Assembly: GCA_965662235.1 (NCBI GenBank)
Contig: CBFIGY010000018.1
Coordinates: 1 to 57,073 of the forward strand
Length of the DNA stretch: 57,073 nucleotides
Direction of reading: 5' to 3'
From: an uncultured bacterium
GTDB lineage: Bacteria; SAR324; NAC60-12
Shown: piece after piece, positions 3,280-15,868 of the stretch
Layout: every line of letters begins with the position of its first letter
Position numbering within the stretch: the first letter of the stretch is position 1
The notes under the pieces: generated by a model
The model's database searches: none
What the model was told of the DNA's origin: nothing
The model's input: only the letters and a program-made list of their open reading frames with translations
Position numbers and translations under genes: made by a program

Positions 3280-4674
3280 ATGCCTGCCCGCGCTTTCCCG
3301 CTCCTTCCGGTTTTCTCGATTGCCAGTTTGCTGGTGCTCTGTGGCTTCACCCTCTTGCTCAGCTGGCTGCTGGGCAATCAGTTGGAAGAGGAGTTGCTGA
3401 GCCGCGACACGCTCATCACCACGACCACGGTGCAGTCAGAGGTAGTCGAGTACCTTGGCAACCGTTCCTTTGAGACGCTTTACCAGGACACAGAGTTGCT
3501 CAAGGACGTCCTGCACGCGGTGACCATGGTTCCCGGAAGCCACGGTGTGGAGATCATTCACCCCGACGGGTTGATCGGCTGGTCGTCCATCCATGAAGAA
3601 GTCGGAGAGTACAAGGATTCTGCCGTCTTCCGCAGAGCAATGTCTGGGAAGGCGACCCTGAAGCACGAGATGGTGGATGAGCAGGCGTTTCCCCACGCCG
3701 ACGCCCGCTACGCCTCAGCGCTGTACATTCCCATTCCACGGGGCAGCGAGATCCTCGGGGTGGTGGAGGTCCACCGTTACAACGTGCAGCTCAAGCGGCA
3801 GGTGGACTCGCTGCGGCAATCGGTCTGGGTCTACAGCCTGGGCTTCGGCAGCGTCCTCTACCTGACGCTGTTGTTGATCATCTTCCCGGCTTCACGCATC
3901 CTCCGACGTCAGCACAACAGCCTGCTGGACAATGCCCAGGAGCTGGCGCAAGCAAACCGGGAGCTCCGGGCCGCGCAGTCCCAGTTGCTCAAGCAAGAGC
4001 GGCTGGCTGCCATGGGAGAAGTGAGCGCGTCTGTGGCTCATGGACTCAAGAACCCCATTGCCGGACTCCGGGCGGCGCTGCAGCTGCTGTCCATTCCGTC
4101 CATCACTCAAGAAGAAAGCAAGGAGATCGTCCTCTCGCTGCTGCGGGAAATTGACCGTCTCACCGAGCGGGTGAACCACCTGCTCAACTTCGTCCGTCCC
4201 TTTCATCCCAACCCAACCGCTCTCTCGCTCTACCCCATGGTGGTGGAGGCCGGACGGTCCCTGGAGTGGCGCTTGCGCGAGAAACACATTGAGCTGCACC
4301 TCCCGGAGCCTTCTGTGCTTCCGGAGGTTCAGGCCGACCCATCGCTGCTGGAGGAGGCCTTCCTGATTGTCCTCTCCAATGCCCTAGACGCCTCTCCGGA
4401 AGGTTCCCGAATCGAGTGCACCGTGGAAGCCAATGCGACCCACCAGTGGATCCGGGTCACCGACGAAGGCGATGGCATCTCGGCAGAGCACATGGAACAC
4501 ATCTTTGAACAGTTTTACACCACCCGCAGCCGTGGGATTGGTCTTGGCCTCGCCCTCTGCAAGAAGATCATGGAGGCCCATCACGGCTCCATCGAGCTTG
4601 ACAGTCAGGAGCACCAGGGAACCACAGTACGGCTGATTCTTCCTAACACTCCCTCTGAGCTGCCTCATGAGTAA
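3280..4674 (+). CDS. Membrane sensor histidine kinase (NtrB-like)
   Basis: GGAGG RBS before ATG 3280; 2 TM segments around a periplasmic domain; H-box AHGLKNP, N-box SNALDA, DEGDG, GIGLGL. Confidence 0.92.
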   Translation: MPARAFPLLPVFSIASLLVLCGFTLLLSWLLGNQLEEELLSRDTLITTTTVQSEVVEYLGNRSFETLYQDTELLKDVLHAVTMVPGSHGVEIIHPDGLIGWSSIHEEVGEYKDSAVFRRAMSGKATLKHEMVDEQAFPHADARYASALYIPIPRGSEILGVVEVHRYNVQLKRQVDSLRQSVWVYSLGFGSVLYLTLLLIIFPASRILRRQHNSLLDNAQELAQANRELRAAQSQLLKQERLAAMGEVSASVAHGLKNPIAGLRAALQLLSIPSITQEESKEIVLSLLREIDRLTERVNHLLNFVRPFHPNPTALSLYPMVVEAGRSLEWRLREKHIELHLPEPSVLPEVQADPSLLEEAFLIVLSNALDASPEGSRIECTVEANATHQWIRVTDEGDGISAEHMEHIFEQFYTTRSRGIGLGLALCKKIMEAHHGSIELDSQEHQGTTVRLILPNTPSELPHE

Positions 4675-5245
4675 CCCTGCTCTTCGCTGGAAGTCCTTCC
4701 TGGTCCTGCTGACCACACTCCTCCTGGTCTCGGCTCCGCTCTGGGCCGACGACGATGACTGGGGAGAGGAGGACGATCGCCGCTCTTCCTTCTTCGGGGG
4801 AGACGGATACGGCGAGCGAGGCGAGGGTTCAGAAGATGCCAGCGAGGCGCTCGGCAACATTGCCCTCTTCGGCTTTGTGGCCCTGAACGGCCTCTACTAC
4901 TACAGCATGGGCTTCAAGCGGGCGCCCAAGCCCCTGCGGACCAGCTCCCCGTCTTGGGTGAAGCTGCCCCTCAAGTGGAAGAATGCGACCCGGAACTTTC
5001 ACTACTGGGGAAACCCGGTGCTCATCGGCATCGCCTGGCTCCACGGCATCACGGCAGAGGAAAGCAACCTCCTCGTCTGGACCGGTTGGGGGCTGATGAT
5101 CCTTCTGGCACTGAGTGGGCTGATCATGAAGCTCCAACGGGCCGATGCGCCTGGGGCCAAGATCAACCGCCTCATCCACTCTCAGCACTTTCTTTCCATT
5201 GCCATGGTCCTGCTGTTGTGGGTTGGGCACGGCTTTCTTGACTAA
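4667..5245 (+). CDS. Membrane protein with acidic exported N-terminus and His-bearing TM helices (possible cytochrome b/ferric-reductase-like)
   Basis: Signal peptide, DDDDWGEEDD tract, His residues in or next to TM helices (NFHYWG, AWLHG, IHSQH, VGHG). Confidence 0.7.
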   Translation: MSNPALRWKSFLVLLTTLLLVSAPLWADDDDWGEEDDRRSSFFGGDGYGERGEGSEDASEALGNIALFGFVALNGLYYYSMGFKRAPKPLRTSSPSWVKLPLKWKNATRNFHYWGNPVLIGIAWLHGITAEESNLLVWTGWGLMILLALSGLIMKLQRADAPGAKINRLIHSQHFLSIAMVLLLWVGHGFLD

Positions 5246-5272
5246 CCCGATGATGCTCTCCAGAGACCTGTG

Positions 5273-5485
5273 ATGATGAAACCCCTCTTTCTTTACAGCG
5301 CCCTGCCGCTCTCTTTAATGCTTGCCGGATGTTTTGGCCCCGAACGCTACGAGGGCCGCTACTCCGGTTCGTCCCGCTATTACGACTCAGACCGGTCTTA
5401 CGACAGTGACCGAAGTCGCTCCTACCGTGACCGTGGTCGCTATCACCGAGAGGGTGATGACGACCATGACGGCTGGGATGATTGA
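5273..5485 (+). CDS. Small lipoprotein 1
   Basis: Lipobox LAG-C; Tyr/Asp/Arg/Ser-rich tail ending DDDHDGWDD. Confidence 0.7.
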   Translation: MMKPLFLYSALPLSLMLAGCFGPERYEGRYSGSSRYYDSDRSYDSDRSRSYRDRGRYHREGDDDHDGWDD

Positions 5486-5596: not shown

Positions 5597-5776
5597 ATGA
5601 AACGTTTATCCGCTCTTCGACTTCGCTGGAGCCTCCTCGTCCTTACCCTGTTGACGGGAGGAAGCCTGATGCTGACCGGCTGTTCAAGTGCGTCCCACTC
5701 GGTAGGAGTTGGGGACTCTGACCACGACGGAGATGCCAATTGCTTCTTGCTCTGCGACTTCGACAGCGATGATTGA
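5597..5776 (+). CDS. Small lipoprotein 2
   Basis: TAAGGAG RBS, lipobox LTG-C, tail DSDHDGDANCFLLCDFDSDD; paralogue of 5804-6019. Confidence 0.75.
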   Translation: MKRLSALRLRWSLLVLTLLTGGSLMLTGCSSASHSVGVGDSDHDGDANCFLLCDFDSDD

Positions 5777-5803: not shown

Positions 5804-6019
5804 ATGAAACGCTTATCGACTCTGCGGCTTCGCTGGACGGTGCTGGCCATCGTCCTTCTGACTGGAGGCAGCCTGCTGCTCTCCGGATGCCAGGCACGTC
5901 TGTTCCGCTCCGATTCACCTGGTTACAGCGACCGGGACTCGGATCGCGGCAACCGAGACCGGGACCGAGACGGCAGCTGTGTCCTCGGGATGTTCTGTGA
6001 CAGCGACAGCGATGATTGA
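5804..6019 (+). CDS. Small lipoprotein 3
   Basis: AAGGAG RBS, lipobox LSG-C, tail DRDRDGSCVLGMFCDSDSDD; signal peptide nearly identical to 5597. Confidence 0.75.
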   Translation: MKRLSTLRLRWTVLAIVLLTGGSLLLSGCQARLFRSDSPGYSDRDSDRGNRDRDRDGSCVLGMFCDSDSDD

Positions 6020-6102: not shown

Positions 6103-6549
6103 ATGAAACAGACCGCCTTTTTCAAATCCCTCCTGTTGGGGGGCTTCGCTTCGCTCGTGTTGAGCTTTTCTGCCCACGCCGGAACCCCGGCCAGCCCTGA
6201 TGCCCAGAAGCTGTTGGACGGTTGGGCCAAGGTTGCTCAGACCGAAAACCCAAGCTTCCAGGGCTTCAGTGCGGCTGAAGGCAAGAAGATCTATCACACG
6301 GAGCACCTTCATTCCGAAGGAGAAAAGCGCAGCTGCGCCAGTTGTCACACCGACAATCCGGCTCAGGCTGGCCGCAACGCTTCTACCGGAAAGGTGATTG
6401 ACCCGCTCTCTCCAGCAGTCAATCCGGAGCGTTTCACCAAGGCGCGGACCATCAACAAGTGGTTCAAGCGCAACTGCAAATGGGTCCTAGAACGGGAGTG
6501 CACCGCTGAGGAAAAGGGGCACTTCACGACCTATATGCTCTCTCTCTAA
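6103..6549 (+). CDS. Sphaeroides heme protein (SHP/DUF1924)-like monoheme cytochrome c
   Basis: Signal peptide, CASCH, TGKVIDPLSPAVNPERFT, KWFKRNC...RECT (SHP-type Asn ligand plus disulfide pattern). Confidence 0.85.
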   Translation: MKQTAFFKSLLLGGFASLVLSFSAHAGTPASPDAQKLLDGWAKVAQTENPSFQGFSAAEGKKIYHTEHLHSEGEKRSCASCHTDNPAQAGRNASTGKVIDPLSPAVNPERFTKARTINKWFKRNCKWVLERECTAEEKGHFTTYMLSL

Positions 6550-6567: not shown

Positions 6568-7167
6568 ATGCCAATGAAAAAGCTACTGCTACTCGGAGTC
6601 TCTGCCAGCTTGATGATGAGTTGTTCGGTCACCTCCTGGGCGGGAGATGACGATGACGAATACGGAGAGCGTGGAGAATATGGGGAACGTGGAGAGGAAA
6701 ATGAGCGCAGCTGGTGGAGCTCCGGAGGTCCCACCCAGCCTGTGTTGGACTCCATCCCGAACCAGCCCGTTGTCTTTCAGGAAGAGTGCGGAGCCTGCCA
6801 CATGGCGTATCAGGCGGAACTGCTCCCGGCTGAGTCCTGGAAGGCCGTCATGGGGGGCCTGAGCGATCACTTTGGAGAAGACGCCAGCATTGAGCCAGCT
6901 CTCAACCAGCAGATCCTCGGACACCTAGTTGCGTACTCGGCAGACAAGTCGTCCAGTCGGGTGTCCCGACGGGTGATGCGGCGCCTTGACAACCGCGTCT
7001 ACCTGCGGATCTCCGACGTTCCTGGCATTGCCCGCCAGCACCGGGAACACATCTCTCAGCGGGTCCTCCAACGAGACGCGATCCGCACCATCGCGAACTG
7101 CCAGGCATGCCACACCACGGCTGAGCAAGGGGATTACAATGAAGACTACGTTCGCATCCCGCGTTGA
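6568..7167 (+). CDS. Diheme cytochrome c (DHC family)
   Basis: EECGACHMAY, LLPAESW, LSDHFGEDAS, NCQACH; AAGGAG RBS. Confidence 0.9.
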   Translation: MPMKKLLLLGVSASLMMSCSVTSWAGDDDDEYGERGEYGERGEENERSWWSSGGPTQPVLDSIPNQPVVFQEECGACHMAYQAELLPAESWKAVMGGLSDHFGEDASIEPALNQQILGHLVAYSADKSSSRVSRRVMRRLDNRVYLRISDVPGIARQHREHISQRVLQRDAIRTIANCQACHTTAEQGDYNEDYVRIPR

Positions 7168-8296
7168 ACTCACCCCGTTTGAGCGGGTCAAGGTCTGGGA
7201 CCTCCCGACCCGCATCTTCCACTGGGCACTGGTCCTCGTTGTAACCGGTGCCTGGGTCACCACCTTCTGGGAGTGGATGCTGGACCTGCACATCTGGTTC
7301 GGCCGCATCCTGGTGCTCCTGTTAGGGTTCCGGATGGTCTGGGGCTGGATTGGCAACGGGTTTGTCCGCTTCCGGGAGTTTGTGGCTTCTCCTCAAGAGG
7401 TGCTGCACTACCTCAAGGAGCGGGCCAAGGGTCCCATTCTGGAGCTGGGGCACAACCCTGCTGCAGGCTGGATGATGGTCACCCTGCTGGCCGGACTGGT
7501 CGCCTTGGCCATCACTGGAGGAATGATTGTCTCCGGCGAGGAACGCATTGGCGTGCTCGGAGGGGTCATCAGTCGCGAGTGGGGCATCAACGCGCACATC
7601 CTCCACAACCTCCTCGCCTACGGGCTCCTTGTCCTGATCACCGGACACGTCCTGGCCGCTAGTCTGGAAAGCTGGGCTCAGCGTCAGAACCTGCCCTGGG
7701 CCATGGTCACGGGCTACAAGCGAGACGTCCCTGGCGCGAACCTCTCCGCCCGGAAGGTGGTCCCCAATGTGTGGGTCCAGAATGCCTTCCTCATCAGCCT
7801 CGGTCTTGTGGGCATGGGGGCCGCGGTCCTGATGCCACTGGAGTTCCACGATGAGTTGACCCAGCAAGCCCTCACCCAAAGTCCACCACCTGGGCATGAG
7901 CTGTATCAAGAAGAGTGTGCCGCCTGCCACGTGGGCTTCCACCCCAGCCTCCTTCCTCAACGGTCCTGGGAGAAGCTGTTTGCCGGACTCGAGGACCACT
8001 TCGGAGAAGACGCAAGCCTCGACGAAGAGACCACCCAGGAACTGCTGGCCTTTGCCACAGCGCACTCTGCCGAAAAGCTCCAGAGCGAAGCTTCTTTTCG
8101 CATTCTCGATTCGGTTCCGTCCCAAGAGACACCCCTACGGATCACAGAGACTCCGTATTGGAAGGAGAAGCACTCCGAGGTGGATCCCGCGGTATTTGAC
8201 CGCAAGTCCGTCCGCAGCCAGCTCAACTGCTCAGCGTGCCACCAGTATGCCGAATATGGTTCCTTTGAAGACGCTCACATCAAGATTCCGGAGTAA
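7139..8296 (+). CDS. Cytochrome b (Ni-hydrogenase CytB-like) fused to a C-terminal DHC domain
   Basis: VWDLPTRIFHW, GHNPAAG, H..LAY, GHV..., MVTGYK, then EECAACH...DHFGEDAS...NCSACH. Confidence 0.88.
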   Translation: MKTTFASRVELTPFERVKVWDLPTRIFHWALVLVVTGAWVTTFWEWMLDLHIWFGRILVLLLGFRMVWGWIGNGFVRFREFVASPQEVLHYLKERAKGPILELGHNPAAGWMMVTLLAGLVALAITGGMIVSGEERIGVLGGVISREWGINAHILHNLLAYGLLVLITGHVLAASLESWAQRQNLPWAMVTGYKRDVPGANLSARKVVPNVWVQNAFLISLGLVGMGAAVLMPLEFHDELTQQALTQSPPPGHELYQEECAACHVGFHPSLLPQRSWEKLFAGLEDHFGEDASLDEETTQELLAFATAHSAEKLQSEASFRILDSVPSQETPLRITETPYWKEKHSEVDPAVFDRKSVRSQLNCSACHQYAEYGSFEDAHIKIPE

Positions 8297-8302: not shown

Positions 8303-9919
8303 GTGCCTCTGAGTTCCGTTCCCCACGCCAAGATCCTGCTGGTTGAGGATGAACGCCTGTTGGGAAAGAGCATCCAGCGCTACCTGTCTGAGCACCACCA
8401 GTGCGAATGGTTTGAGAGCGTCGAAGCCGCCATCGGATTCCTGCGCAACGAGTCGGTGGACATCATTGTCTCAGACATCAAGCTGCCAGGAAAAAGCGGA
8501 CTCGACCTCCTCCACTGGATCCTGGAGTACCAACCCCAGACGCCCATCATCCTCATCACGGCACACAGCAGCATTCCGGATGCCGTCAAGGCCATTCGAG
8601 AGGGGGCGGCTGATTACCTCAGCAAGCCCCTCGACCTCGCCACCCTGGAGCTTTCAGTGGCCCGGGTGCTCCGCAACAACCGGTTGCAGCAGGAAGTTCA
8701 CTACCACCGCCAGCAAGCCCGTCAGATCGGAGAAGGCTCCGAGCCTCATGCGTTGACCGCCTCGGCATACGCAGAAATCGAGTCCCGGGTGCAGCGCCTC
8801 ATCAGCATTGAGAGCCAAAGCGGCGAGGCGCCCTCCATCCTCATCACCGGCGAGACAGGCACCGGTAAGGGAGTCCTTGCTCGACGGATTCATCAGCAGT
8901 CGCCACGGAGCGCTGAGCCGTTCATTGAAATCAACAGCACCGCCATTCCGGAAACCATGGTGGAGTCCGAGCTGTTTGGGCACGAAAAAGGGGCCTTCAC
9001 CGGAGCCGTGTCGCAACGGGCCGGACTCTTTGAGCTGGCCAACGGTGGCACCATCTTTCTTGATGAAATTGGGCACATCCCCCTTGGCCTGCAAGCCAAG
9101 CTGCTCAAGGTCATTGAAGACAAGCGCATCCGACGCATCGGAGGCGGACGGGAGACGGACCTGGACGTCCGGATCATCGCGGCCACCAACATCGACCTGG
9201 CCCAGGCGGTCCGAGAAGGCACCTTCCGTGAAGACCTCTACCACCGCCTCGCCCTCATCCACCTGCACCTTCCTCCCCTCCGGGAGATGACCGCTGAGAT
9301 TCCGGCGCTGGCTCAGGAATTCCTCCGCGAGGCCCTGCGCAAGTACGCCATCCCGCATGACCCTGAACACTTGCACCTGTCGGTTGAAAATGAACGAATG
9401 CTGAAGCAGCACTCGTGGCCAGGGAACATCCGGGAGCTGAAGAACGAGGTGGAACGCAGCGTCCTGTTTCACGGGATTGACCGGCTTCGCTTCACCCACC
9501 TGCAGCACCTGCAGGCGCCTTCTGCGCCGACGCTCTCACCGACGCCTTCAAGCAGCGCCCCAGGTCCCCTGTTTCAGCTCCCAGAAGATGGACTTTCGCT
9601 GCTGGAAGTGGAACCTCGGATCCTGGCCCAGGCCCTCAAGCAGACGTCCGGAGAGCCGGAGACCGCCGCCCGTTTGCTGCACATGACCGCCAAGGAGTTT
9701 GAATTCCGCCTTCAGCGGCACCACTTCGACTGGACCCAGGCGTCCGGATGGGAACACGCCATTCCGGAGGAGGGCATCGACCTCACGCTGCTGGAGCAAA
9801 ACCTGCTGAAGCAGGCTCTGGAACAGACTCGCCACAATGTCACAGGAGCCGCTCGACTCCTGAACCTCAGTCGCGACCAGATGCGGTACCGACTGGAAAA
9901 ACACGGACTGGATGGCTAA
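8303..9919 (+). CDS. Sigma54-dependent response regulator (NtrC family) with two C-terminal Fis-type HTH modules
   Basis: Receiver (VEDE, SDIKLP), GETGTGK, ESELFGHEKGAFTGA, FLDEIG, FREDLYHRL, WPGNIREL. Confidence 0.95.
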   Translation: MPLSSVPHAKILLVEDERLLGKSIQRYLSEHHQCEWFESVEAAIGFLRNESVDIIVSDIKLPGKSGLDLLHWILEYQPQTPIILITAHSSIPDAVKAIREGAADYLSKPLDLATLELSVARVLRNNRLQQEVHYHRQQARQIGEGSEPHALTASAYAEIESRVQRLISIESQSGEAPSILITGETGTGKGVLARRIHQQSPRSAEPFIEINSTAIPETMVESELFGHEKGAFTGAVSQRAGLFELANGGTIFLDEIGHIPLGLQAKLLKVIEDKRIRRIGGGRETDLDVRIIAATNIDLAQAVREGTFREDLYHRLALIHLHLPPLREMTAEIPALAQEFLREALRKYAIPHDPEHLHLSVENERMLKQHSWPGNIRELKNEVERSVLFHGIDRLRFTHLQHLQAPSAPTLSPTPSSSAPGPLFQLPEDGLSLLEVEPRILAQALKQTSGEPETAARLLHMTAKEFEFRLQRHHFDWTQASGWEHAIPEEGIDLTLLEQNLLKQALEQTRHNVTGAARLLNLSRDQMRYRLEKHGLDG

Positions 9920-10423: not shown

Positions 10424-11020
10424 ATGAAGGCACTCTGGCTGATTGTAGGGGGATTCTTGCTGCAGACCTCTGTTGCAGGTGCTCAGGAAGCCCTTTTTGC
10501 GTCCGGCGACCACTGCCTCGCTTACCGGACCCACAAGGAAATGTTTTTGATGGCAGACGTGGAAGTGGTGGGAAAGAGCTGCGAGGTCTCTGCCCGCATG
10601 GAGGTCGACGGAAACCGGGTCCGGTTTACCGTCACGTCACCTGTGGCCTCCTTTGATTCTGACAGCTCCATGCGCGACAGCAGCGTCCAGGAGATTCTCA
10701 AAGCAGACGAGTATCCGGACCTAATTTTTCTCTCACGCTGGGTCCCCCGCGACGAGGTACAGGCCGTGAAGCAGGGAGGAACGTTTCGTTTGGAAGGGGA
10801 GTTGGAGATTGCGGGCGTGCCGCACCTGATGGGATTCTCTCTAAAGGTGCAATCTGCAGAGGGTTACTCCATCATCACCGGGGAGCAGGACACTTCCTTT
10901 TCGCTGCTGCAGATTGTGGTCCCCCCCGTAGCCGGAGGGGTAGTGGCTCAGCCAGCTGATGACCTTGCCATCCTCTTGCACTTGCGGACGGATCAGGTCT
11001 TGGGCTTCGACTCACTCTGA
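10424..11020 (+). CDS. YceI-like periplasmic lipid/quinone-binding protein
   Basis: Signal peptide; SFDSDSSMRD..ILKADEYPDLIF..GELEIAGV YceI pattern. Confidence 0.75.
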   Translation: MKALWLIVGGFLLQTSVAGAQEALFASGDHCLAYRTHKEMFLMADVEVVGKSCEVSARMEVDGNRVRFTVTSPVASFDSDSSMRDSSVQEILKADEYPDLIFLSRWVPRDEVQAVKQGGTFRLEGELEIAGVPHLMGFSLKVQSAEGYSIITGEQDTSFSLLQIVVPPVAGGVVAQPADDLAILLHLRTDQVLGFDSL

Positions 11021-12148
11021 TCCACGTGTCGGAATCGAAAATCCGGCCAGCAGCCCCTTTTCGTCCCCCACCACGGCATGCCCTGGAGCAAATGCGGCTC
11101 CGACTCGAGAGGTCAGCCCCGTCGCGATGCTCCACTGTGGCTTCCCGGAGTTCTCTTCCAGAGCAAACAGGTACCCCCGTTGCGACAGCCCGTAGAGGCG
11201 ACCATTCCGCACCGCGGGTGCGCCCAGCAGGTAATTGAAGGAGCCCCAAGGGATGTCGTACTCCCACAATCGGGTTCCTGACTGCACCTCATAGGCAAAG
11301 ACGCGGGTGTTTGCCGAGCCCCAATAGACCACGTTGCCGACACCAGTAAGGGACGGAACCCAGTTTCCCGTGTCCCGTTTCCAGAGGAAGTCTCCTGTGG
11401 TCGCAGACATCCCCACCAGAAAGTCCTGATACGCGATGAAGACCAGCCGTTCAGCTGTCGCGTGCAGGGCCTTGACGAACCCTTCGGTCCGTCGGACCTC
11501 CCAGCGCTTCTCTCCTGTGGCGGCATTCAGGCTGATGAGCATCATCGGCCCGCCCTCATCGACCTCAATTTCCGGAGCGTAGTAGCTGCCCCCGATGTAG
11601 AGCCAGCCTTCACTGAGCACCGGGGTCTGCATGGCGTAATGACGCGTTTCCTGCTTCCAGAGAACCGTCCCGTCAGATGCACGCAGCGCCCAAACGTAGG
11701 TGGGTTCGTTGAGCGTCTCCAAGGGTTCTCCCACCCGAGAGGTCACCACGTACAGCACCCCATCCACCAACAGCGGGGCCACCTGCGCGTTGAGCCCCAG
11801 GTCCTGTTTCCAGACCCGGTGCCCATCCTCTAGGTTCAGCGCAACCAGAGCGTGGTCCTTGAGGGCCACCCAGACCAGTTGGTCTGAAGCGGTAAATGAA
11901 CGTTCCCACAGGCCTTCCGGAGGCTGGAACCGCCAGTGCACGGTTCCGGAATCCACCGCGACGGCCCAGAGGGAATTTCCCGAAGCCGCCAACACCCTCT
12001 CCCCTTGAATGTGAGGAGAGAGGTTAAACGGAGCATCGGTCTGCAGCGTCCAAGTGGGCTTCACGGTCGGAGGCTCAGAGACCTGTGCCTCCGCTCCTCC
12101 CAGTTGAAGCATCCCAACCAGGACGCTGAGCAGCAGCAGTCGCCTCAC
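11012..12148 (-). CDS. Secreted PQQ-like (BamB-type) beta-propeller repeat protein
   Basis: Signal peptide and repeated A-L-x-x-x-x-G-x-x-x-W blades. Confidence 0.85.
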   Translation of the reverse strand: MRRLLLLSVLVGMLQLGGAEAQVSEPPTVKPTWTLQTDAPFNLSPHIQGERVLAASGNSLWAVAVDSGTVHWRFQPPEGLWERSFTASDQLVWVALKDHALVALNLEDGHRVWKQDLGLNAQVAPLLVDGVLYVVTSRVGEPLETLNEPTYVWALRASDGTVLWKQETRHYAMQTPVLSEGWLYIGGSYYAPEIEVDEGGPMMLISLNAATGEKRWEVRRTEGFVKALHATAERLVFIAYQDFLVGMSATTGDFLWKRDTGNWVPSLTGVGNVVYWGSANTRVFAYEVQSGTRLWEYDIPWGSFNYLLGAPAVRNGRLYGLSQRGYLFALEENSGKPQWSIATGLTSRVGAAFAPGHAVVGDEKGLLAGFSIPTRGSE

Positions 12149-13218
12149 TGCCGCTTGCCGTGCAGGACCATGGGTCCGTCGCGGTTCTCTTCCGTGATGT
12201 CAAAGGCAATCCCAATCGGCATCCGGTTGTTCCGCAGACGCTCCCGCATCTTCGAATGATCCCAATCGTAATCGGTCGCTCCCACAGCACTCTGTCCCAG
12301 CAGCGGCACACCCGGTGGGCTTGACACAACGTCTCCCCCCTTCATGATGCCTTCGTAGGAACTCAGGTCCATCTCATGGTAGGAGAGGTCGGTGTTGCCG
12401 AAGTGGCAGCTGGAGCAAGGCGCAGAGCCGTTGTACCACATGTTGCCTTCCGTGAAGAGCTGCTTCACGTCTCGCTCAAAGTTCACGGCGTGTCCGCCAT
12501 AGTTGAAGCTTTCTGCCTTCGTGGCGCCAGCGCTCACCCAGGCTTCCAGCAGTCCCACAGCGTTGAGGTCGCAACCGTACTCCAATGTTCCCTTGCCCTT
12601 GGAGCCCGGAATCGTGGCGCCAGCAGCCGTCACTTCCACACAGGGACCATCGCGGTTGACTTCTGAAAGGTCTTCCGGCCATCCCGGAGGCATGCGGTTG
12701 TTCCGCAGGCGGGCCCGTAGCTTCGAGTGTCCCCAGTCGTAATCGGTCGCCCCAACGTCAGACTGACCCAAAATCGCCACTCCCGGAGGACTCGACAGCA
12801 CATCGCCGCCCTTCATGATGCCCTCGTAGGAGCTTAGGTCCATCTCGTGGTAGGAGTTCTCCGTATTCCCGTTGTGGCAGCTGGCGCACGACCGAGCCCC
12901 TTCGTACCAGACACCAGCCTTGGTAAACAGCGGCAGAATGTCTTCTTCGAAGGTTCCCGGATACAGGTCTCCGTTGGCCCCCTTGTACTGAAACTCCCCG
13001 TTTGGTGACCCGGCATTGACCCAGTCCCCAATGATCTCCACCGCTTTTGCGCTGGGATCATTCTTGTATCCGGCCTGCGAGTCTCCAATGCAGTTCGCAT
13101 AAACCTGGATGGCCTCATTCAGGCACATCTCCACCTTGTTCTCTTGAGCCTCTGCCGTTCCAAACAGGCCCAGCAGCGCGACAGCAGTTTGTGCCATCCG
13201 CCTTACTAGCTTCAGCAT
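12145..13218 (-). CDS. Periplasmic diheme cytochrome c built from two tandem homologous domains
   Basis: GGAGG RBS; signal peptide; CASCH and CSSCH each followed by YHEMDLSSYEGIMKGGDV.SSPPGV...RLRNNRMP. Confidence 0.85.
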   Translation of the reverse strand: MLKLVRRMAQTAVALLGLFGTAEAQENKVEMCLNEAIQVYANCIGDSQAGYKNDPSAKAVEIIGDWVNAGSPNGEFQYKGANGDLYPGTFEEDILPLFTKAGVWYEGARSCASCHNGNTENSYHEMDLSSYEGIMKGGDVLSSPPGVAILGQSDVGATDYDWGHSKLRARLRNNRMPPGWPEDLSEVNRDGPCVEVTAAGATIPGSKGKGTLEYGCDLNAVGLLEAWVSAGATKAESFNYGGHAVNFERDVKQLFTEGNMWYNGSAPCSSCHFGNTDLSYHEMDLSSYEGIMKGGDVVSSPPGVPLLGQSAVGATDYDWDHSKMRERLRNNRMPIGIAFDITEENRDGPMVLHGKRQ

Positions 13219-13332
13219 GTACGCCTCCATCTATTGTTAACAGGAAAGTGCCCCGAGCCCCTTCATTCGGACTCGTTGCTCCCCCACTCCCTCCCCCGTG
13301 TTGGGGAGAAAGTTGGATAAGCTTCCTATAAC

Positions 13333-13348
13333 AGCAACGGACATACCG
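13333..13348 (-). promoter_or_regulatory. Candidate sigma54 promoter 2
   Basis: Minus strand CGGTATGTCCGTTGCT (GG-N10-GC, TTGCT), about 115 nt upstream of the 13218 start, with AT-rich DNA upstream. Confidence 0.5.
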
Positions 13349-13517
13349 AGTGCTTTCCAGAATCACATTCTCTTAAAACAAGAGAACTGTAACTCTTTGA
13401 AACACTAATTCTTTTAATTTGGATTCAAAAAAGACAAGAAACCCGTCAGGACAGGCCTTAAATCACAGAACGGGTATTTTTTTGGGTATTTGGGATTTTT
13501 CTGGGGTCAACTTGGGT

Positions 13518-13946
13518 TTAAGATCTGGGGACCCCATTGACTGCCCAGTCCTTCAGGTAACCGATCTCCCGATCAGTGAGTGGGGTTGCATAATCCAGCG
13601 GCATTTGACGGACGCTTCCCATCGGCTGTTCCAGGATGCCTCCTGTGATCCAAGACCCTAGGGTGTCCGCACCTCGGACCGTACTGTTGTCACCCGCGTA
13701 GAGGGTGAGGTTCAGGGTGTAGCTCCGGATGCTGGCCGGGGTGTAATCAGTCGCCGGCACCACGTGGCAGGTGGCGCACTTGTTCTGGATGATCTCGCCA
13801 ACTCCATTCTCCCAAGTCGGGGTTCCGGAAATGATCGTCTCATCCGGTGCTTCCCCTCCCAGCATGTCGGCATTGGAGCATCCGCCCATGCTCAGGGCGA
13901 TCAGAAGCAGGCCCCCGACTCCCCACTTTCCCAAAGCCTGACGCAT
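13518..13946 (-). CDS. Monoheme cytochrome c lipoprotein
   Basis: AAGGAGG RBS, lipobox MGG-C, PTW...IIQNKCATCH...QMP...LKDWA. Confidence 0.82.
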   Translation of the reverse strand: MRQALGKWGVGGLLLIALSMGGCSNADMLGGEAPDETIISGTPTWENGVGEIIQNKCATCHVVPATDYTPASIRSYTLNLTLYAGDNSTVRGADTLGSWITGGILEQPMGSVRQMPLDYATPLTDREIGYLKDWAVNGVPRS

Positions 13947-14689
13947 TAAAACCTCCTTTTGACTGAAAACTGAATGTGCTGGAGAAAGTCCTCGGTTTGG
14001 TGCTGTTCCACCACAAAGTCCCATTCGCTCCAGCGAAGCTCCAGTCCCACAAACTGGTAGCTGAAGGACTGATCCGGAAGCCGGAGCAGCACGTCATCTT
14101 CGCCAATCAGCAGGCTCAGATCCTGGTTGCCGGAGCCGTAACCTGCGTACGGGATCCATCCGCCCAGGTTCCACCCAAGGCGGAGGTCCATGTTGTTCTG
14201 CTGAATCTCAAAGGTATCGTCATACTCCTTGGTGGTCATGGCTCCGACAATTTTCCACGATGACAGAGACGCTCGGGCGCCCACCAGCAGGTTGCCGGTT
14301 TGTCCTCGCCACCCGAGTTCACCCTGAGCAAACGTTGCCGTCTGCGATCCGGTAGGAATTCCAGGAGAGCCGGCCACCCCGAGGGCCAATCCCCAAGGCA
14401 AGTGATAACGTCCCCGGAGGCGCGGCACCAGTGGAAGCGTGTCAACGGGCTCGCTCTTGGCCCCCACCCGGTTGTCGATCTCCGGCATCAGCAAAGCGTC
14501 TGCTTGCAGCACAAAGGTTCCGCTCTCTTCCGGCAGAGGTGCCGCGTTTGAACGGAAGTCCAGAATGAAGGCATACACCTGCTGAATGCGGTCTGCCTGT
14601 TCTTCCGACGTGACGGCGCTTGCTGAAGACGCCGTCAGGCTCAGGAGGCCTGTCAGCAGACCACATAAAAGACGATTAATTCGGCGCAT
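13946..14689 (-). CDS. Putative outer-membrane beta-barrel protein
   Basis: Signal peptide, alternating amphipathic strands (DLRLGWN, PYAGYG, FVGLEL), C-terminal Phe; translationally coupled to its neighbours. Confidence 0.65.
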   Translation of the reverse strand: MRRINRLLCGLLTGLLSLTASSASAVTSEEQADRIQQVYAFILDFRSNAAPLPEESGTFVLQADALLMPEIDNRVGAKSEPVDTLPLVPRLRGRYHLPWGLALGVAGSPGIPTGSQTATFAQGELGWRGQTGNLLVGARASLSSWKIVGAMTTKEYDDTFEIQQNNMDLRLGWNLGGWIPYAGYGSGNQDLSLLIGEDDVLLRLPDQSFSYQFVGLELRWSEWDFVVEQHQTEDFLQHIQFSVKRRF

Positions 14690-15323
14690 AGATTACAGAC
14701 TGGCTTCCGCCTGAGCTGTGGCAACTGTAGCAATTACCAGTGGTTGTATGTTGAGAGGACATCTCATAAACCTGATTGTTGCGCTCAATCACTGGGTAGA
14801 GGCCCGAACTGAGCGTTGAAACAGACTGCGTGGTGTAGAAGTTCCCGGTTTGGTCCACGGGAAGCGTCAGTACCAAGGTTCCCGTTTGATTCGCGCCTGT
14901 ATAAAACCTCATTACGGCGCTGCTGTTCGTTAAGGCCGTGCTCCCGGAGCTATCGGTGAAGACACTTCCGGCGATGGTAAAGGCGTATTCGGAGGCCTCA
15001 CTTCCGCTTCCAGCCACATGACAGGAAACGCATTCTCTTCCCGCGTTATGACTGCATGAAGCGTTGGTGCTGATTGCGCTATCCGAGTCCAGTGAAGTCC
15101 GGGCGCGGTCATCATCTCGACAGGCAACTTCGTTGCTTTCACTGTCATCGCTGTTGACCGTACTGGGATCAAGCGGGTTCAGGGGAAAGTCTTCGCTGCT
15201 GCACCCTGAGATGCCGAACACTCCAACAAATAATCCACCAAAAATCCATACTGGAACCGATAACCGACCAAACGTCATGGGCTTCCTCACAAAAGGGTTC
15301 ATTGTTTCAAAAGACATCATCAC
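14676..15323 (-). CDS. Diheme cytochrome c lipoprotein B (start uncertain)
   Basis: ISG-C lipobox, SHNAGRECVSCH and GNCYSCH; Ser/Thr-rich. Confidence 0.82.
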   Translation of the reverse strand: MMMSFETMNPFVRKPMTFGRLSVPVWIFGGLFVGVFGISGCSSEDFPLNPLDPSTVNSDDSESNEVACRDDDRARTSLDSDSAISTNASCSHNAGRECVSCHVAGSGSEASEYAFTIAGSVFTDSSGSTALTNSSAVMRFYTGANQTGTLVLTLPVDQTGNFYTTQSVSTLSSGLYPVIERNNQVYEMSSQHTTTGNCYSCHSSGGSQSVIYAPN

Positions 15324-15868
15324 GGCGCATACAGAGGAGGCTGACTGCCCCCGGAAGCGTGACAGCTTGCACAGTTTCCTGTGGTCGCAGCTTGGGTCAC
15401 CATGGACTGCGTTTTCCCGGCATAGGCAATCGTGGGATACAGGCCATTCCCCAACTCGGCAACCGATTGACTGGTGTAGAAGTTACCGGAACCATCTACC
15501 GGCAGTTCCAGCACCAGGTCACCCGCCTGACTTGGTTGCGTGTAAAACTTTACCACCGCACCACTGTTTCCCGTTAACGCCGCTGTGCTGACGTTGCTGG
15601 CGTGAACGCTTCCGGCAATGGTAAAGGCGTACTCAGAGGCCTCACTTCCACTTCCCGAGGAGTGGCAGTTGGTGCAGGTCTGCCCAAAGTTGTGGCTGAT
15701 TGCCCCAGCGCTGCTGGTGAGGCTGTGGGATTCGTCCTCCCCCTCTCCCGAACAACCCGTCAGGAGTAGGCTGCCCAGTAGCAACCCCATTCCCAGTGCT
15801 CGTTTTCCCCCAAGGAAAAGACGTCGTCCCTTCATGCTCATCTGCAACTCATCCATCTGACTTCTCAT
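15320..15868 (-). CDS. Diheme cytochrome c lipoprotein A (paralogue of B; start uncertain)
   Basis: LTG-C lipobox, SHNFGQTCTNCH and GNCASCH; GGAG upstream of ATG 15868. Confidence 0.82.
   Translation of the reverse strand: MRSQMDELQMSMKGRRLFLGGKRALGMGLLLGSLLLTGCSGEGEDESHSLTSSAGAISHNFGQTCTNCHSSGSGSEASEYAFTIAGSVHASNVSTAALTGNSGAVVKFYTQPSQAGDLVLELPVDGSGNFYTSQSVAELGNGLYPTIAYAGKTQSMVTQAATTGNCASCHASGGSQPPLYAP

What the first reader, a model, noticed from the sequence alone, without database searches (positions are those of the whole stretch)
3280..15868. Sigma54-controlled cytochrome island spanning inner membrane to cell surface
Seen: 12 CxxCH motifs in 7 genes, a cytochrome b, a second His-rich membrane protein, a Tat Rieske protein, YceI, a beta-propeller, a putative porin, up to 7 lipoproteins and a dedicated kinase/bEBP pair. 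Known: the SHP-DHC-cytochrome b core is described from Rhodobacter and Shewanella, and porin-cytochrome conduits mediate extracellular electron transfer. Inference: an undescribed trans-envelope electron-transfer or metal-redox system made of small mono/diheme cytochromes instead of decahemes. No catalytic subunit is evident, so the substrate is unknown.
Basis: partly seen in the sequence, partly recalled or inferred. Interest (0 to 1): 0.85.

Follow-up and report, generated by a model that had tools for sequence, protein, structure and literature searches.

The report
Regulated cytochrome island with iron-oxidase homologue
A marine SAR324-type bacterium clusters a known but functionally unexplained cytochrome complex (SHP), a distant relative of a bacterial iron-oxidising cytochrome and a small outer-membrane barrel with lipoprotein cytochromes behind similar-looking promoters, which points to iron as a testable substrate.

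Summary
In detail: 12 CxxCH motifs in 7 adjacent genes, cytochrome b, Tat-Rieske, YceI, a propeller, an outer-membrane barrel, 7 lipoboxes and a kinase/sigma54-activator pair.

The island is built from separable modules:
1. A kinase/activator pair.
2. A bona fide SHP / cytochrome c''–DHC–CytB::DHC operon, which is a known kind.
3. A 361-aa diheme cytochrome whose only PDB relative is FoxE, the Fe(II) oxidoreductase of Rhodobacter SW2 (E 1.4e-24). It is followed by a FoxY-like 8-blade propeller, and the pair recurs in 62 of 79 loci across phyla.
4. A rare 10-12-strand barrel paired with a monoheme lipoprotein, plus diheme lipoproteins.
5. Rieske and YceI.

Sigma54-type -24/-12 elements, conserved in related genomes, precede all three transcription units. 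In other SAR324 genera the modules are adjacent in different orders, which argues for functional coupling.

The barrel is too small for an Mtr-type porin-cytochrome sheath, and surface exposure is unshown. There are no expression or biochemical data.

Verdict: a new variant of known kinds, moderately to highly interesting.

The parts
3086..3101 (+). P1, sigma54-type -24/-12 element TGGTCCATGACTTGCT upstream of the kinase gene
   Evidence: The same element is at the same place in the two same-genus genomes (TGGTCTGCGACTTGCT and TGGTCTGTTGCTTGCT). C-rich repeats and an AT-rich stretch lie upstream. Promoter function is inferred, not shown.
3280..4674 (+). Sensor histidine kinase with 2 TM segments and a periplasmic domain of about 150 aa that matches no known family
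   Evidence: Pfam HisKA and HATPase_c. AtoS/ZraS-like core, below the cut-offs. TM-like segments at 2-33 and 181-205, and no SK1 motifs.
4667..5245 (+). Small membrane protein with an acidic periplasmic N-terminal part and a borderline cytochrome b561-like C-terminus; its start overlaps the kinase stop
   Evidence: Ni_hydr_CYTB 29.6 bits against a 30.1 cut-off. Conserved next to the SHP genes in other SAR324 genera.
5270..5485 (+). Small lipoprotein A: Arg/Tyr/Ser/Asp-rich, with an acidic GW-DD C-terminus
   Evidence: Counterparts with His/Glu-rich repeats and a ...DDDD or ...EDD end occur in four other genomes.
5597..5776 (+). Small lipoprotein B, a paralogue of C, ending C..C-DFDSDD
5804..6019 (+). 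Small lipoprotein C
   Evidence: conserved in G002.
6103..6549 (+). SHP / cytochrome c'' family monoheme cytochrome
   Evidence: DUF1924 131 bits. PDB 1E8E cytochrome c'' E 1.1e-23; SHP 1DW0 E 7.5e-15.
6568..7167 (+). Soluble diheme cytochrome c (sDHC) with an acidic N-terminal extension
   Evidence: PF09626 122 bits. PDB 2FW5 E 9.4e-30; 3U99 E 2.8e-22.
7139..8296 (+). Membrane cytochrome b561 fused to a second DHC domain (CytB/mDHC chimera)
   Evidence: Ni_hydr_CYTB 69.7 bits plus DHC 125.9 bits. This chimera is described for Rhodobacter sphaeroides (PMC2909971, passages read).
8303..9919 (+). NtrC-type response regulator, a sigma54 enhancer-binding protein
   Evidence: REC, Sigma54_activat 213.6 bits, AAA_lid_14 and HTH_8. 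GAFTGA at residue 230. One of 9 full-length matches to this domain in the genome.
9912..10415 (+). Tat-signal lipoprotein with a Rieske domain and an unusual second cluster motif (C-x7-H in place of C-x-x-H)
   Evidence: Adjacent copies were seen only in the two same-genus genomes.
10424..11020 (+). YceI-like periplasmic protein
   Evidence: PF04264 35.3 bits. Adjacent copies were seen only in the two same-genus genomes.
11012..12148 (-). FoxY-like secreted 8-blade beta-propeller (PQQ_2 family) with a Sec signal
   Evidence: PQQ_2 104 bits. A homologue is adjacent to the FoxE-like gene in 62 of 79 loci. It is the only own-genome hit of the proteins in the FoxY position of two canonical foxE loci (E 1.7e-10 and 7.3e-8).
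12145..13230 (-). FoxE-like diheme c-type cytochrome made of two tandem modules of about 150 aa
   Evidence: The only significant PDB relative is FoxE 5MAB: single sequence E 5.3e-15, family profile E 1.4e-24. Reciprocal hit from a FoxE orthologue E 1e-24. 340 homologues, 50-65% identical across phyla.
13333..13348 (-). P2, sigma54-type element CGGTATGTCCGTTGCT upstream of the FoxE-like gene
   Evidence: Corresponding elements, TGG(A/T)AC-N5-CTTGCG, score 9 of 11 in four loci of other genera. Promoter function is inferred.
13433..13458 (-). Terminator-like hairpins after the monoheme gene
   Evidence: This is a pattern match only, and the number found in the region (9) is below the shuffle mean (13.2).
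13518..13946 (-). Monoheme c-type cytochrome lipoprotein; its ATG overlaps the barrel gene's stop
   Evidence: It lies directly after the barrel gene in G005 and in 4 of 6 further SAR324 loci. No PDB or Pfam match.
13946..14689 (-). Outer-membrane beta-barrel of 247 aa, about 10-12 strands, ending in Phe
   Evidence: AlphaFold model pLDDT 72.5 with 10 strands. Listed Foldseek hits are almost all outer-membrane barrels such as FapF, autotransporters, OmpT/Pla and TodX. The family is rare: 70 representatives among 1.84 billion proteins.
14676..15323 (-). Diheme lipoprotein 2: a disordered acidic linker, then CxxCH, a beta-sandwich and a second CxxCH
   Evidence: Only the beta-sandwich core is confidently modelled.
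15320..15871 (-). Diheme lipoprotein 1, a paralogue of lipoprotein 2 (57% identity)
15971..15986 (-). P3, sigma54-type element AGGTCTGGGTCTTGCC upstream of the lipoprotein/barrel operon
   Evidence: G002 has CGGTCCAGGTCTTGCC and G001 has AGGCATAATTTCTGCT at the corresponding place. This is the weakest of the three elements. Promoter function is inferred.

Best explanation
The region is one regulon made of separable modules. It is switched on by its own two-component system through sigma54, and most likely handles a reduced metal in the periplasm, with Fe(II) the best candidate.

**Proposed chain**
1. The kinase senses a periplasmic signal. The overlapping membrane protein and the acidic small lipoproteins may help (inferred).
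2. The kinase phosphorylates the NtrC-type activator.
3. The activator opens three sigma54 promoters:
   - P1: kinase through SHP, sDHC, CytB::DHC, activator, Rieske and YceI.
   - P2: FoxE-like cytochrome and FoxY-like propeller.
   - P3: two diheme lipoproteins, the small outer-membrane barrel and the monoheme lipoprotein.
4. The FoxE-like diheme cytochrome, with its propeller partner, takes electrons from Fe(II) in the periplasm.
5. The lipoprotein cytochromes, held near a small outer-membrane barrel, act as further entry or relay points at the inner face of the outer membrane.
6. The SHP-sDHC-CytB::DHC complex connects this periplasmic cytochrome pool to the quinone pool, or to SHP's small-molecule ligand site (O2 or NO).

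**Shown here:** gene content, homologies, operon layout, conserved promoter-like elements and re-shuffled synteny.

**Inferred:** the regulon itself, the substrate, the direction of electron flow and all protein contacts.
For: **Regulation**
- The activator has REC, a sigma54 AAA+ domain with GAFTGA, and HTH_8. rpoN is present.
- GG-N10-GC elements with a TTGC -12 box lie upstream of each unit. They recur at the same places in related genomes: P1 in 3 of 3 genomes of the genus, P3 in 3 of 3, and P2 in the 5 genomes.
- P2-type sites score 9 of 11 in four other-genus loci, L016, L017, L018 and L048. L017 and L048 are the same genomes as G012 and G005, so P2 is seen in 7 distinct genomes.

**Coupling of modules through changed gene order**
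- In G005 the order FoxE-like, propeller, kinase, activator lies on one strand without SHP.
- A second G005 locus has, on one strand: membrane protein, small lipoprotein, SHP, sDHC, CytB::DHC, diheme lipoprotein, barrel (47% identity), monoheme (52% identity).
- In three loci of other genera (L016, L017 = G012, L018) the FoxE-like/propeller pair is convergent with activator-CytB::DHC-sDHC-SHP-kinase.
- A Thioglobus locus has SHP, DHC and CytB 3 kb from the FoxE-like/propeller pair.
- All 7 SAR324 genomes with a strong FoxE-like hit also have SHP.

**Substrate**
- FoxE is the only PDB relative of the family.
- The CxxCH motifs and the R-x-N-R-M-P motifs that hold the conserved methionines align.
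- An orthologue of FoxE (E 9e-125 to 5MAB) is followed by a PQQ_2 propeller of 362 aa. Both hit only the island's two genes in this genome.
- The FoxE-like/propeller pair is conserved in 62 of 79 loci. In Chloroflexota it sits by aa3 oxidase genes: COX2 in 19, COX1 in 18 and COX3 in 16 of the 79 loci.
- Iron-related neighbours occur elsewhere: FeoB and FTR1 in L069, Fur in L034.

**Literature**
- FoxE takes electrons from Fe(II), and foxEY-like operons without foxZ exist (PMC10654088, foxEYZ section read).
- SHP complexes have already been proposed as links in iron oxidation (bioRxiv 10.64898/2026.01.22.701106, passages read).
Against: - **Remote homology.** The FoxE match is about 26-33% identical over the modules. 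Function may have drifted. By the aa3 oxidase in Chloroflexota the family could be a plain electron carrier.
- **Weak propeller link.** The propeller-FoxY match is weak (28% over 114 aa). Another own-genome PQQ-like protein scores higher against the propeller profile (87 against 71 bits).
- **No foxZ.** No foxZ-like transporter family was hit among the island's ORFs.
- **Genome context.** RuBisCO was not found. PqqC was not found either, but that search's control was silent, so the negative is weak.
- **Promoter matches are not rare.** There are 41 sites scoring at least 8 of 11 in the first 22 kb on both strands. The strict consensus found no excess (6 against 11.3 expected). P1 and P3 have GGTCC/GGTCT rather than GGCAC at -24.
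- **Spacing failure in G005.** The corresponding element upstream of the G005 SHP operon has the wrong spacing.
- **Repeats not enriched.** The C-rich repeat heptamer is not enriched in the window (15 against 17.5 expected). A genome scan found look-alike clusters upstream of unrelated genes.
- **Modules mostly occur apart.** SHP is in 17 of 88, FoxE-like in 10 of 88 and the barrel family in 16 of 88 SAR324 genomes. All three occur together only in G000, G001, G002, G005 and, with weaker hits, G043.
- **No direct data.** No surface exposure is shown, and there are no expression data.
Confidence: 0.45

Rival explanations
1. Adjacent but independent systems. On this view the region holds a classical SHP operon with its own two-component regulator, a stand-alone foxEY-like cassette, and an unrelated outer-membrane barrel/lipoprotein operon. 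They lie together by chance or by co-transfer and share no pathway.
For: - Each module is found alone in most genomes: SHP in 17 of 88, FoxE-like in 10 of 88 and the barrel family in 16 of 88 SAR324 genomes.
- Outside SAR324 the FoxE-like/propeller pair is a two-gene cassette in variable contexts. Only 1 of the non-SAR324 loci (L034) has SHP nearby.
- The barrel/monoheme pair occurs without any other island gene in L117, L118, L119 and L121.
- Rieske and YceI were seen adjacent only in the own genus.
Against: - Adjacency is kept while order and strand change between genera, including single-strand fusions: FoxE-like-propeller-kinase-activator, and SHP-...-CytB::DHC-diheme lipoprotein-barrel-monoheme.
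- In G049 and G051 the FoxE-like and SHP genes lie about 5 kb apart on the same contig.
- All three units carry the same promoter type next to a dedicated activator.
Confidence: 0.2
2. A small-molecule (NO, O2 or a related ligand) reduction or detoxification system centred on SHP / cytochrome c''. Quinol reduces CytB::DHC, then sDHC, then SHP, which acts on a diatomic ligand. The FoxE-like and lipoprotein cytochromes are merely extra periplasmic electron carriers, and iron plays no part.
For: - SHP binds O2, NO and other ligands and has reported NO dioxygenase activity. The quinol-to-SHP direction is the published model (PMC2909971 and the bioRxiv preprint, passages read).
- The window's protein is nearest to cytochrome c''.
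- In G005 the FoxE-like locus lies a few kb from cd1-type NirS/NirF-like and cytochrome c genes. That naming rests on my reading of the ORF translation, not on a family search.
- The family's position by the aa3 oxidase in Chloroflexota fits a carrier role.
Against: - It does not explain the tightly conserved propeller partner (62 of 79 loci).
- It does not explain the outer-membrane barrel with lipoprotein cytochromes fused to the SHP operon in G005.
- The only characterised relative of the 361-aa protein is an Fe(II) oxidoreductase.
Confidence: 0.2
3. An outward extracellular electron-transfer conduit for metal-oxide respiration. Electrons run from quinol through CytB::DHC and sDHC to the lipoprotein cytochromes, and then across the outer membrane through the barrel.
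For: - An inner-membrane quinol-side module, periplasmic cytochromes, outer-membrane-type lipoproteins with no Asp at position +2, and an outer-membrane barrel are all encoded together.
- There are weak sub-threshold matches to MtrC/MtrF domain II/IV (E 6e-4 to 2e-3).
Against: - The barrel has only 247 aa and about 10-12 strands. That is too narrow to enclose a cytochrome domain.
- No protein has more than 2 hemes.
- There is no multiheme wire and no evidence of surface exposure.
- The MtrC matches are below the cut-offs.
Confidence: 0.07

Closest known systems
SHP operon: SHP / cytochrome c'', soluble DHC and membrane CytB or CytB/mDHC chimera, often with a sensor kinase/response regulator (Meyer, Kyndt and Cusanovich 2010, PMC2909971)
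   Same: All three core proteins are present and adjacent, including the CytB/mDHC chimera known from Rhodobacter sphaeroides. A two-component pair is embedded in the cluster, as in most species described.
   Different: - The kinase lacks the SK1 motifs.
- The regulator is an NtrC-type sigma54 activator. The passages I read name three kinase types and do not mention sigma54 (0 occurrences of 'sigma' in the paper).
- Extra genes are embedded: a b561-like membrane protein, three small acidic lipoproteins, Rieske and YceI.
- The cluster is linked to foxEY-like and outer-membrane modules.
foxEYZ operon of Rhodobacter ferrooxidans SW2: FoxE, a diheme Fe(II) oxidoreductase (PDB 5MAB); FoxY, an 8-blade propeller; FoxZ, a DMT-type transporter. 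Related foxEY-like operons lack foxZ (PMC10654088)
   Same: - A two-module diheme c-type cytochrome homologous to FoxE, with aligned CxxCH and RMP methionine motifs.
- It is followed directly by a secreted PQQ_2-family propeller of about 370 aa.
- Both genes are reciprocal best hits.
   Different: - Only about 26-33% identity, with longer modules (about 150 aa) carrying an insertion.
- The family has 2 to 4 or more modules in other phyla.
- The propeller has a Sec-type rather than a Tat-type signal.
- No foxZ.
- The host carries no sign of being a phototroph that I tested for. Phototrophy genes were not searched.
- It sits under a sigma54 promoter.
Outer-membrane iron oxidases and porin-cytochrome conduits: Cyc2 (a monoheme cytochrome fused to a porin) and MtoAB/PioAB/MtrAB (a decaheme inside a large porin). 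Their architecture is recalled from general knowledge and from the table in PMC10654088.
   Same: A c-type cytochrome is genetically paired with an outer-membrane beta-barrel. The barrel-to-monoheme gene overlap is conserved in G005 and in 4 of 6 further SAR324 loci.
   Different: - The genes are separate rather than fused.
- The barrel has about 10-12 strands and 247 aa.
- The cytochromes are lipoproteins with 1 or 2 hemes.
- No sequence or profile match to these families was obtained.
NtrBC / ZraSR / AtoSC-type sigma54-dependent two-component systems
   Same: The domain architecture of both proteins matches. GAFTGA is present. rpoN is present. There are -24/-12-type elements upstream of the target operons.
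   Different: All NCBIfam equivalog scores are far below their cut-offs; for example AtoS scores 200.6 against 646, and NtrC 366 against 558.6. The sensor domain matches no family.

Membership tests
SHP operon (PMC2909971) | Monoheme SHP / cytochrome c'' family protein | tested here: met
   DUF1924 131 bits against a 22.5 cut-off. 1E8E E 1.1e-23; 1DW0 E 7.5e-15.
SHP operon (PMC2909971) | Soluble diheme cytochrome c (DHC) adjacent to SHP | tested here: met
   PF09626 122 bits. 2FW5 E 9.4e-30. The gene starts 19 nt after the SHP gene ends.
SHP operon (PMC2909971) | Membrane diheme cytochrome b, alone or fused to a second DHC | tested here: met
   Ni_hydr_CYTB 69.7 bits plus DHC 125.9 bits in one ORF.
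SHP operon (PMC2909971) | Regulator of one of the three described kinase types (SK1 with Orf1, SK2 QseC-like, SK3) | tested here: inconclusive
   The SK1 motifs SGVYWQ and RSRSLWD are absent. SK2 and SK3 were not compared, because no reference sequences were in hand. The partner regulator is NtrC-type.
foxEY(Z) iron-oxidation operon | Diheme c-type cytochrome homologous to FoxE | tested here: met
   FoxE 5MAB is the only significant PDB hit: E 5.3e-15, profile E 1.4e-24. Reciprocal hit E 1e-24, the only hit in the genome.
foxEY(Z) iron-oxidation operon | Met-His heme ligation, with methionines in conserved R-M-P motifs | tested here: met
   M180 and M337 are invariant in 23 of 23 family members. 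They align to FoxE's RANRMP and TEDRMP. Ligation itself is inferred.
foxEY(Z) iron-oxidation operon | FoxY: a PQQ-type 8-blade propeller encoded next to foxE | tested here: met
   The Pfam families match those of the protein in the FoxY position: PQQ_2 104 against 96.9 bits. It is the only own-genome hit of two FoxY-position proteins. Caveat: the similarity is low, and another PQQ-like protein scores higher against the propeller profile.
foxEY(Z) iron-oxidation operon | FoxZ, an inner-membrane DMT-type transporter | tested here: not met
   No transporter family was hit among the island's ORFs. The literature says foxZ is usually missing from foxEY-like operons (PMC10654088).
foxEY(Z) iron-oxidation operon | Fe(II) oxidation activity | not testable with these tools
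   This needs protein biochemistry or physiology.
Porin-cytochrome conduit (Mtr/Mto/Pio type) | Large porin (20 or more strands) enclosing a multiheme cytochrome | tested here: not met
   The barrel has 247 aa and 10 modelled strands. No protein has more than 2 CxxCH.
Cyc2-type fused cytochrome-porin | Monoheme cytochrome domain fused to the barrel in one polypeptide | tested here: not met
   The barrel ORF has no CxxCH. The monoheme is a separate lipoprotein gene.
Sigma54-dependent two-component regulon | Activator with a sigma54 AAA+ domain and GAFTGA; rpoN in the genome | tested here: met
Sigma54-dependent two-component regulon | Functional -24/-12 promoters at the target operons | tested here: inconclusive
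   Conserved GG-N10-GC elements are at P1, P2 and P3. Single matches are common by chance, and no transcript data were available.

The most novel reading that the evidence does not exclude
Non-phototrophic marine SAR324 bacteria may run an inducible, modular Fe(II)-oxidation pathway. A FoxEY-type periplasmic iron oxidase and a split 'barrel plus lipoprotein cytochrome' unit at the outer membrane (a functional analogue of Cyc2) would feed electrons into the SHP-DHC-CytB complex. That would give the long-orphan SHP complex its physiological role, as the coupling site between metal-derived electrons and the quinone pool or a terminal ligand. The same FoxE-like/propeller cassette, spread through SUP05-type Gammaproteobacteria, Rhodospirillaceae and Chloroflexota (there beside the aa3 oxidase), would then mark a widespread and overlooked route of dark iron oxidation.
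Probability: 0.25. Interest if true: 0.85.

Novelty: new variant of a known kind. Interest (0 to 1): 0.66.

Why it matters
- **SHP function.** SHP was found in 1985 and its function is still unknown (stated in the preprint passages read). Here its operon is wired, by gene order in several genera and by promoter type, to a homologue of a proven Fe(II) oxidoreductase and to an outer-membrane cytochrome module. That gives a concrete hypothesis to test with a handful of proteins.
- **Unannotated family.** The FoxE-like/propeller cassette has no Pfam family, and nearly all source names listed for it are 'hypothetical protein'. Yet it is 50-65% identical across very distant phyla and sits in abundant marine groups.
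- If the cassette oxidises iron, gene-based iron-cycle budgets that count only canonical FoxE or Cyc2 would miss it.
- **Literature.** I found no paper holding both 'FoxE' and 'SAR324'.

Tried and rejected
- **Complex prediction.** The FoxE-like protein with the propeller (alignments A1 and A3) returned 'no answer' (score 0.01). It says nothing either way.
- **Expression.** No RNA holder was listed among the public runs. DNA holders with at least half of the words were 6 runs from 4 studies labelled marine or aquatic.
- **Strict sigma54 consensus.** A search with up to 2 mismatches found nothing in the island and no excess (6 against 11.3 expected).
- **C-rich upstream repeat.** The heptamer AWTCCCC is not enriched in the window. 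My looser cluster definition was derived from the island itself, and it also picks sites before unrelated genes such as acyl-CoA dehydrogenase-like and CoA-transferase-like ORFs. I keep the repeats only as something noticed.
- **Barrel as an orphan.** The word-index homologue search found only 4 clusters for the barrel, which first suggested a genus-restricted orphan. Profile searches corrected this: 16 of 88 SAR324 genomes and 70 library representatives.
- **Diheme lipoprotein model.** Mean pLDDT was 56.9, too poor for a fold search, so none was run.
- **ESM Atlas.** It returned only unnamed Myxococcota 'putative lipoprotein' clusters.
- **PqqC search.** It was negative, but its control rang nowhere, so it is uninformative.
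- **Quinohemoprotein amine dehydrogenase.** This reading of 'diheme plus propeller' was considered and dropped, because no small gamma subunit or radical-SAM gene is present.
- **Earlier-findings look-ups.** All returned nothing.

Full report
**What is there**

The window is contig C18 of a 3.47-Mb, 96.9%-complete genome. The record titles of its closest relatives read 'Deltaproteobacteria bacterium' or 'SAR324 cluster bacterium' MAGs.

Between 3.0 and 16.0 kb lie 17 genes in two convergent blocks.

Plus strand:
- kinase, 3280-4674
- a small membrane protein whose start overlaps the kinase stop, 4667-5245
- three small lipoproteins, 5270-5485, 5597-5776 and 5804-6019
- SHP-type cytochrome, 6103-6549
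- soluble DHC, 6568-7167
- cytochrome b561 fused to a second DHC, 7139-8296
- NtrC-type activator, 8303-9919
- Tat-signal Rieske lipoprotein overlapping the activator stop, 9912-10415
- YceI, 10424-11020

Minus strand, read from 15871 down:
- two paralogous diheme lipoproteins
- a 247-aa barrel
- a monoheme lipoprotein; these four genes overlap or abut
- a 287-nt gap
- a 361-aa diheme cytochrome, 13230-12145
- a 378-aa propeller, 12148-11012

The count of 12 CxxCH in 7 genes is exact. None of 28 ORFs in the rest of the window has the motif. Pfam and NCBIfam assignments are, and seven lipoboxes are listed. Two trims apply: the 'second His-rich membrane protein' has only 5 His and a sub-threshold b561 match, and the Rieske protein's second cluster motif is C-x7-H here and C-x6-H in the sister genome, not C-x-x-H.

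**The left core is a known kind**

- The monoheme protein matches DUF1924. In the PDB it matches cytochrome c'' (E 1.1e-23) and SHP (E 7.5e-15).
- The DHC matches the R. sphaeroides and Shewanella DHC structures.
- The CytB/DHC chimera is the arrangement described for R. sphaeroides.
- Meyer et al. report SHP as part of a 3-6 gene operon with a membrane cytochrome b, one or two DHCs and, in most species, one of three kinase/regulator types (PMC2909971, abstract and passages read).
- Here the kinase lacks the SK1 motifs, and the regulator is a sigma54 activator with GAFTGA. That paper does not contain the word 'sigma'.

**The '361-aa diheme plus propeller' pair is a distant foxEY**

The diheme protein has no Pfam family, yet 340 homologues were found, many 50-65% identical. 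Their source names span Chloroflexota, Gammaproteobacteria, Rhodospirillaceae and Actinomycetota. Each of its two modules of about 150 aa carries an invariant CxxCH, SYHEMDL-like and R-N-N-R-M-P motif.

Evidence for the FoxE link:
- A profile of 23 members hits exactly one PDB sequence, FoxE of Rhodobacter ferrooxidans SW2 (5MAB, E 1.4e-24). The window protein alone gives E 5.3e-15.
- To obtain a canonical locus I searched 401 genomes of the family of a Rhodobacteraceae MAG. Apart from that MAG itself, two genomes had weak hits.
- One of them encodes a protein with E 9e-125 to 5MAB, followed directly by a 362-aa Tat-signal PQQ_2 propeller. This is the foxE-foxY arrangement.
- Used as queries against all ORFs of at least 150 aa in the window's genome, the FoxE orthologue hits only the 361-aa protein (E 1e-24). 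The two FoxY-position proteins hit only the island's propeller (E 1.7e-10 and 7.3e-8).

Caveats:
- The propeller similarity is low (28% over 114 aa).
- The propeller-family profile scores another own-genome PQQ-like protein higher than FoxY (87 against 71 bits).

Distribution of the pair:
- By tblastn, 62 of 79 loci have a propeller next to the cytochrome.
- By ORF clustering, 49 of 54 loci with at least 3 kb of room have one. Three of the five misses do have a tblastn hit.
- The pair lies on the same strand in 27 loci and on opposite strands in 22.

Neighbours of the pair:
- In Chloroflexota they are aa3 oxidase genes (COX2 in 19, COX1 in 18 and COX3 in 16 of the 79 loci, plus SURF1, SCO1 and heme O synthase), with a LuxR regulator and a GAF kinase.
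- In Proteobacteria the context varies, with some iron genes: FeoB and FTR1 in L069, Fur in L034.

The literature describes FoxE as the cytochrome that takes electrons from Fe(II) and FoxY as an 8-blade propeller. It also reports foxEY-like operons that lack foxZ in other lineages (PMC10654088, foxEYZ section read). No foxZ-like gene is in the island.

**The outer-membrane module**

- The 247-aa protein has a signal peptide and a C-terminal Phe. It folds as a barrel with 10 modelled strands (pLDDT 72.5).
- Its listed Foldseek matches are almost all outer-membrane barrels: FapF, autotransporter domains, OmpT/Pla and TodX.
- The family is rare, with 70 representatives at E <= 1e-3 in 1.84 billion proteins. 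It is not genus-restricted, being present in 16 of 88 SAR324 genomes.
- In G005 and in 4 of 6 further loci examined, the monoheme lipoprotein gene follows the barrel gene directly. Barrel plus monoheme is therefore the conserved core.
- The diheme lipoproteins have a disordered acidic linker and a beta-sandwich between the two heme motifs. A third paralogue sits on contig C23.
- A barrel of this size cannot sheath a cytochrome, so an Mtr-type conduit is excluded. Nothing shows that any cytochrome reaches the surface.

**Are the modules one system?**

Gene order gives the main evidence:
- The whole island is syntenic in both same-genus genomes.
- In three loci of other genera (L016, L017 = G012, L018) the FoxE-like/propeller pair is convergent with activator-CytB::DHC-sDHC-SHP-(membrane protein)-kinase. 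The barrel operon, Rieske and YceI are absent there.
- In G005 one locus reads FoxE-like, propeller, kinase, activator on one strand without SHP.
- A second G005 locus reads, on one strand with overlaps: membrane protein, small lipoprotein, SHP, sDHC, CytB::DHC, diheme lipoprotein, barrel, monoheme.
- A Thioglobus locus has SHP, DHC and CytB 3 kb from the FoxE-like/propeller pair.

So every pair of modules is adjacent somewhere, in changing order.

Across 88 SAR324 genomes the counts are:
- SHP in 17
- FoxE-like in 10, of which 7 are strong and all 7 have SHP
- the barrel family in 16
- all three together only in G000, G001, G002, G005 and, weakly, G043

The modules are thus separable, and the full combination is confined to a few lineages.

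**Promoters**

A strict consensus search found nothing. Comparing orthologous upstream regions did find sites:
- **P2** is upstream of the FoxE-like gene.
  - The window has CGGTATGTCCGTTGCT.
  - G002 has the near-identical site.
  - G001 has GGGCATGCCTCTTGCC.
  - Four other-genus loci have TGG(A/T)AC-N5-CTTGCG, scoring 9 of 11.
- **P1** is upstream of the kinase: TGGTCCATGACTTGCT at 3086-3101, conserved in 3 of 3 genomes of the genus. This makes the long TTG-start ORF from 3052 an artefact.
- **P3** is upstream of the lipoprotein operon: AGGTCTGGGTCTTGCC at 15986-15971, with counterparts in G002 and G001.

Other points:
- Terminator-like hairpins lie between the monoheme gene and P2.
- rpoN is present, and there are 9 full activator matches.
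- Each promoter has C-rich direct repeats 60-170 nt upstream. Their heptamer core is not enriched, and look-alike clusters exist elsewhere.
- Single -24/-12 matches are common.
- The element before the G005 SHP operon has a spacing 2 nt too short.

I rate sigma54 control as probable for P2 and plausible for P1 and P3.

**Mechanism and rivals**

The best reading (0.45) is a sigma54-governed regulon for handling a reduced metal, most likely Fe(II). The FoxE-like/propeller pair and the outer-membrane-proximal lipoprotein cytochromes would be electron entry points. The SHP-sDHC-CytB::DHC complex would link them to quinone or to SHP's ligand site.

The genome has two heme-copper oxidases and no RuBisCO hit. 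Any iron oxidation would therefore be supplementary or protective rather than autotrophic.

The rivals are:
- independent neighbours (0.20)
- an SHP-centred NO/O2 system in which the other cytochromes are plain carriers (0.20)
- outward extracellular electron transfer (0.07)

The direction of electron flow cannot be read from sequence.

**Comparison and novelty**

- The SHP core is a member of its family.
- The FoxE-like/propeller pair meets the sequence and synteny features of foxEY but not foxZ. It forms a divergent subfamily that has no Pfam family, and nearly all source names listed for it are 'hypothetical protein'.
- The barrel with lipoprotein cytochromes matches no known family.
- What is new is the combination, the sigma54 regulator and the barrel/monoheme pair.
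- The SHP-iron link has been hypothesised before, for Ferrigenium and Sideroxydans (preprint passages).
- No paper in the library holds both 'FoxE' and 'SAR324'.
- Metagenome surveys do report foxEYZ hits in many phyla (PMC12482716 and PMC12501874, passages read). One family member, P0106, bears the tag prefix Fur0018, and a MAG of that name is listed among Chloroflexota MAGs with iron-oxidation genes in PMC12501874. The passage does not say which gene was detected. Some members may therefore already be flagged as FoxE by HMM tools; I could not check this.
- The figshare supplements of PMC10654088 were not seen. They may list related taxa.

Noticed in passing
window 4667-6019; also L017, L018, L016 and L112:12190-12580: Acid-rich periplasmic segments recur. 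The b561-like protein and the soluble DHC both begin with DDDD...YGERGE-type stretches. The small lipoprotein after the b561-like gene is conserved in other genera: a lipobox, then Arg/Tyr or His/Glu-rich repeats, then a ...GW/F-DDDD or EDD end. These look like metal-binding peptides or sensor accessories.
   Followed up: partly
window 9912-10415: The Rieske domain keeps C-P-H, but its second motif is C-x7-H here and C-x6-H in G002, instead of C-x-x-H. It carries both a Tat signal and a lipobox.
   Followed up: partly
G000:C23:36723-37733 (L102:1495-2505, minus strand): A third paralogue of the diheme lipoprotein (336 aa) has a linker of about 190 aa rich in Asp, Ser, Gly and His (for example HDANDPHDPHDANGPHDD). 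It stands apart from the island.
   Followed up: partly
loci L022-L033, L038-L040, L054-L062 and others (Chloroflexota): The FoxE-like (2-4 modules) plus propeller pair lies beside an aa3 cytochrome oxidase operon (COX1/2/3, SURF1, SCO1, heme O synthase) with a LuxR-type regulator and a GAF kinase. Several loci have two propeller paralogues in tandem.
   Followed up: partly
window 2923-3013, 13471-13519 (minus) and 16050-16078 (minus): C-rich direct repeats (TTCCCC, ATCCCC or TACCC cores, 2-4 copies) lie 60-170 nt upstream of each sigma54-like element, and at the same places in related genomes. They may be activator binding sites. The core heptamer is not statistically enriched.
   Followed up: partly
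window 6020-6102: The 83-nt gap between small lipoprotein C and the SHP gene holds two GC-rich hairpins, one of them terminator-like (6068-6083). This may be an attenuator or processing site inside the long plus-strand unit.
   Followed up: no
G005:C74:4071-5049: A second SHP-like stretch in G005 is interrupted by stops (1 TGA and 2 TAA inside the match). It is probably a decayed copy.
   Followed up: no
L098:20-1971 (G004): A 274-aa protein with 8 CxxCH, ending HHEEKDDDDHDD, lies next to a 346-aa relative of the diheme lipoproteins with 3 CxxCH. This is another small-cytochrome cluster in a SAR324 relative.
   Followed up: no
window 35505-39272 (minus): CcmF and a TPR CcmH-like protein (cytochrome c maturation system I) lie about 20 kb from the island.
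   Followed up: no
L110:5942-7030 compared with window 11012-12148: The canonical FoxY-position propeller has a twin-arginine signal (MQLTNRRQLLAG...). The island's propeller has a Sec-type signal. This hints at a difference in cofactor loading.
   Followed up: no
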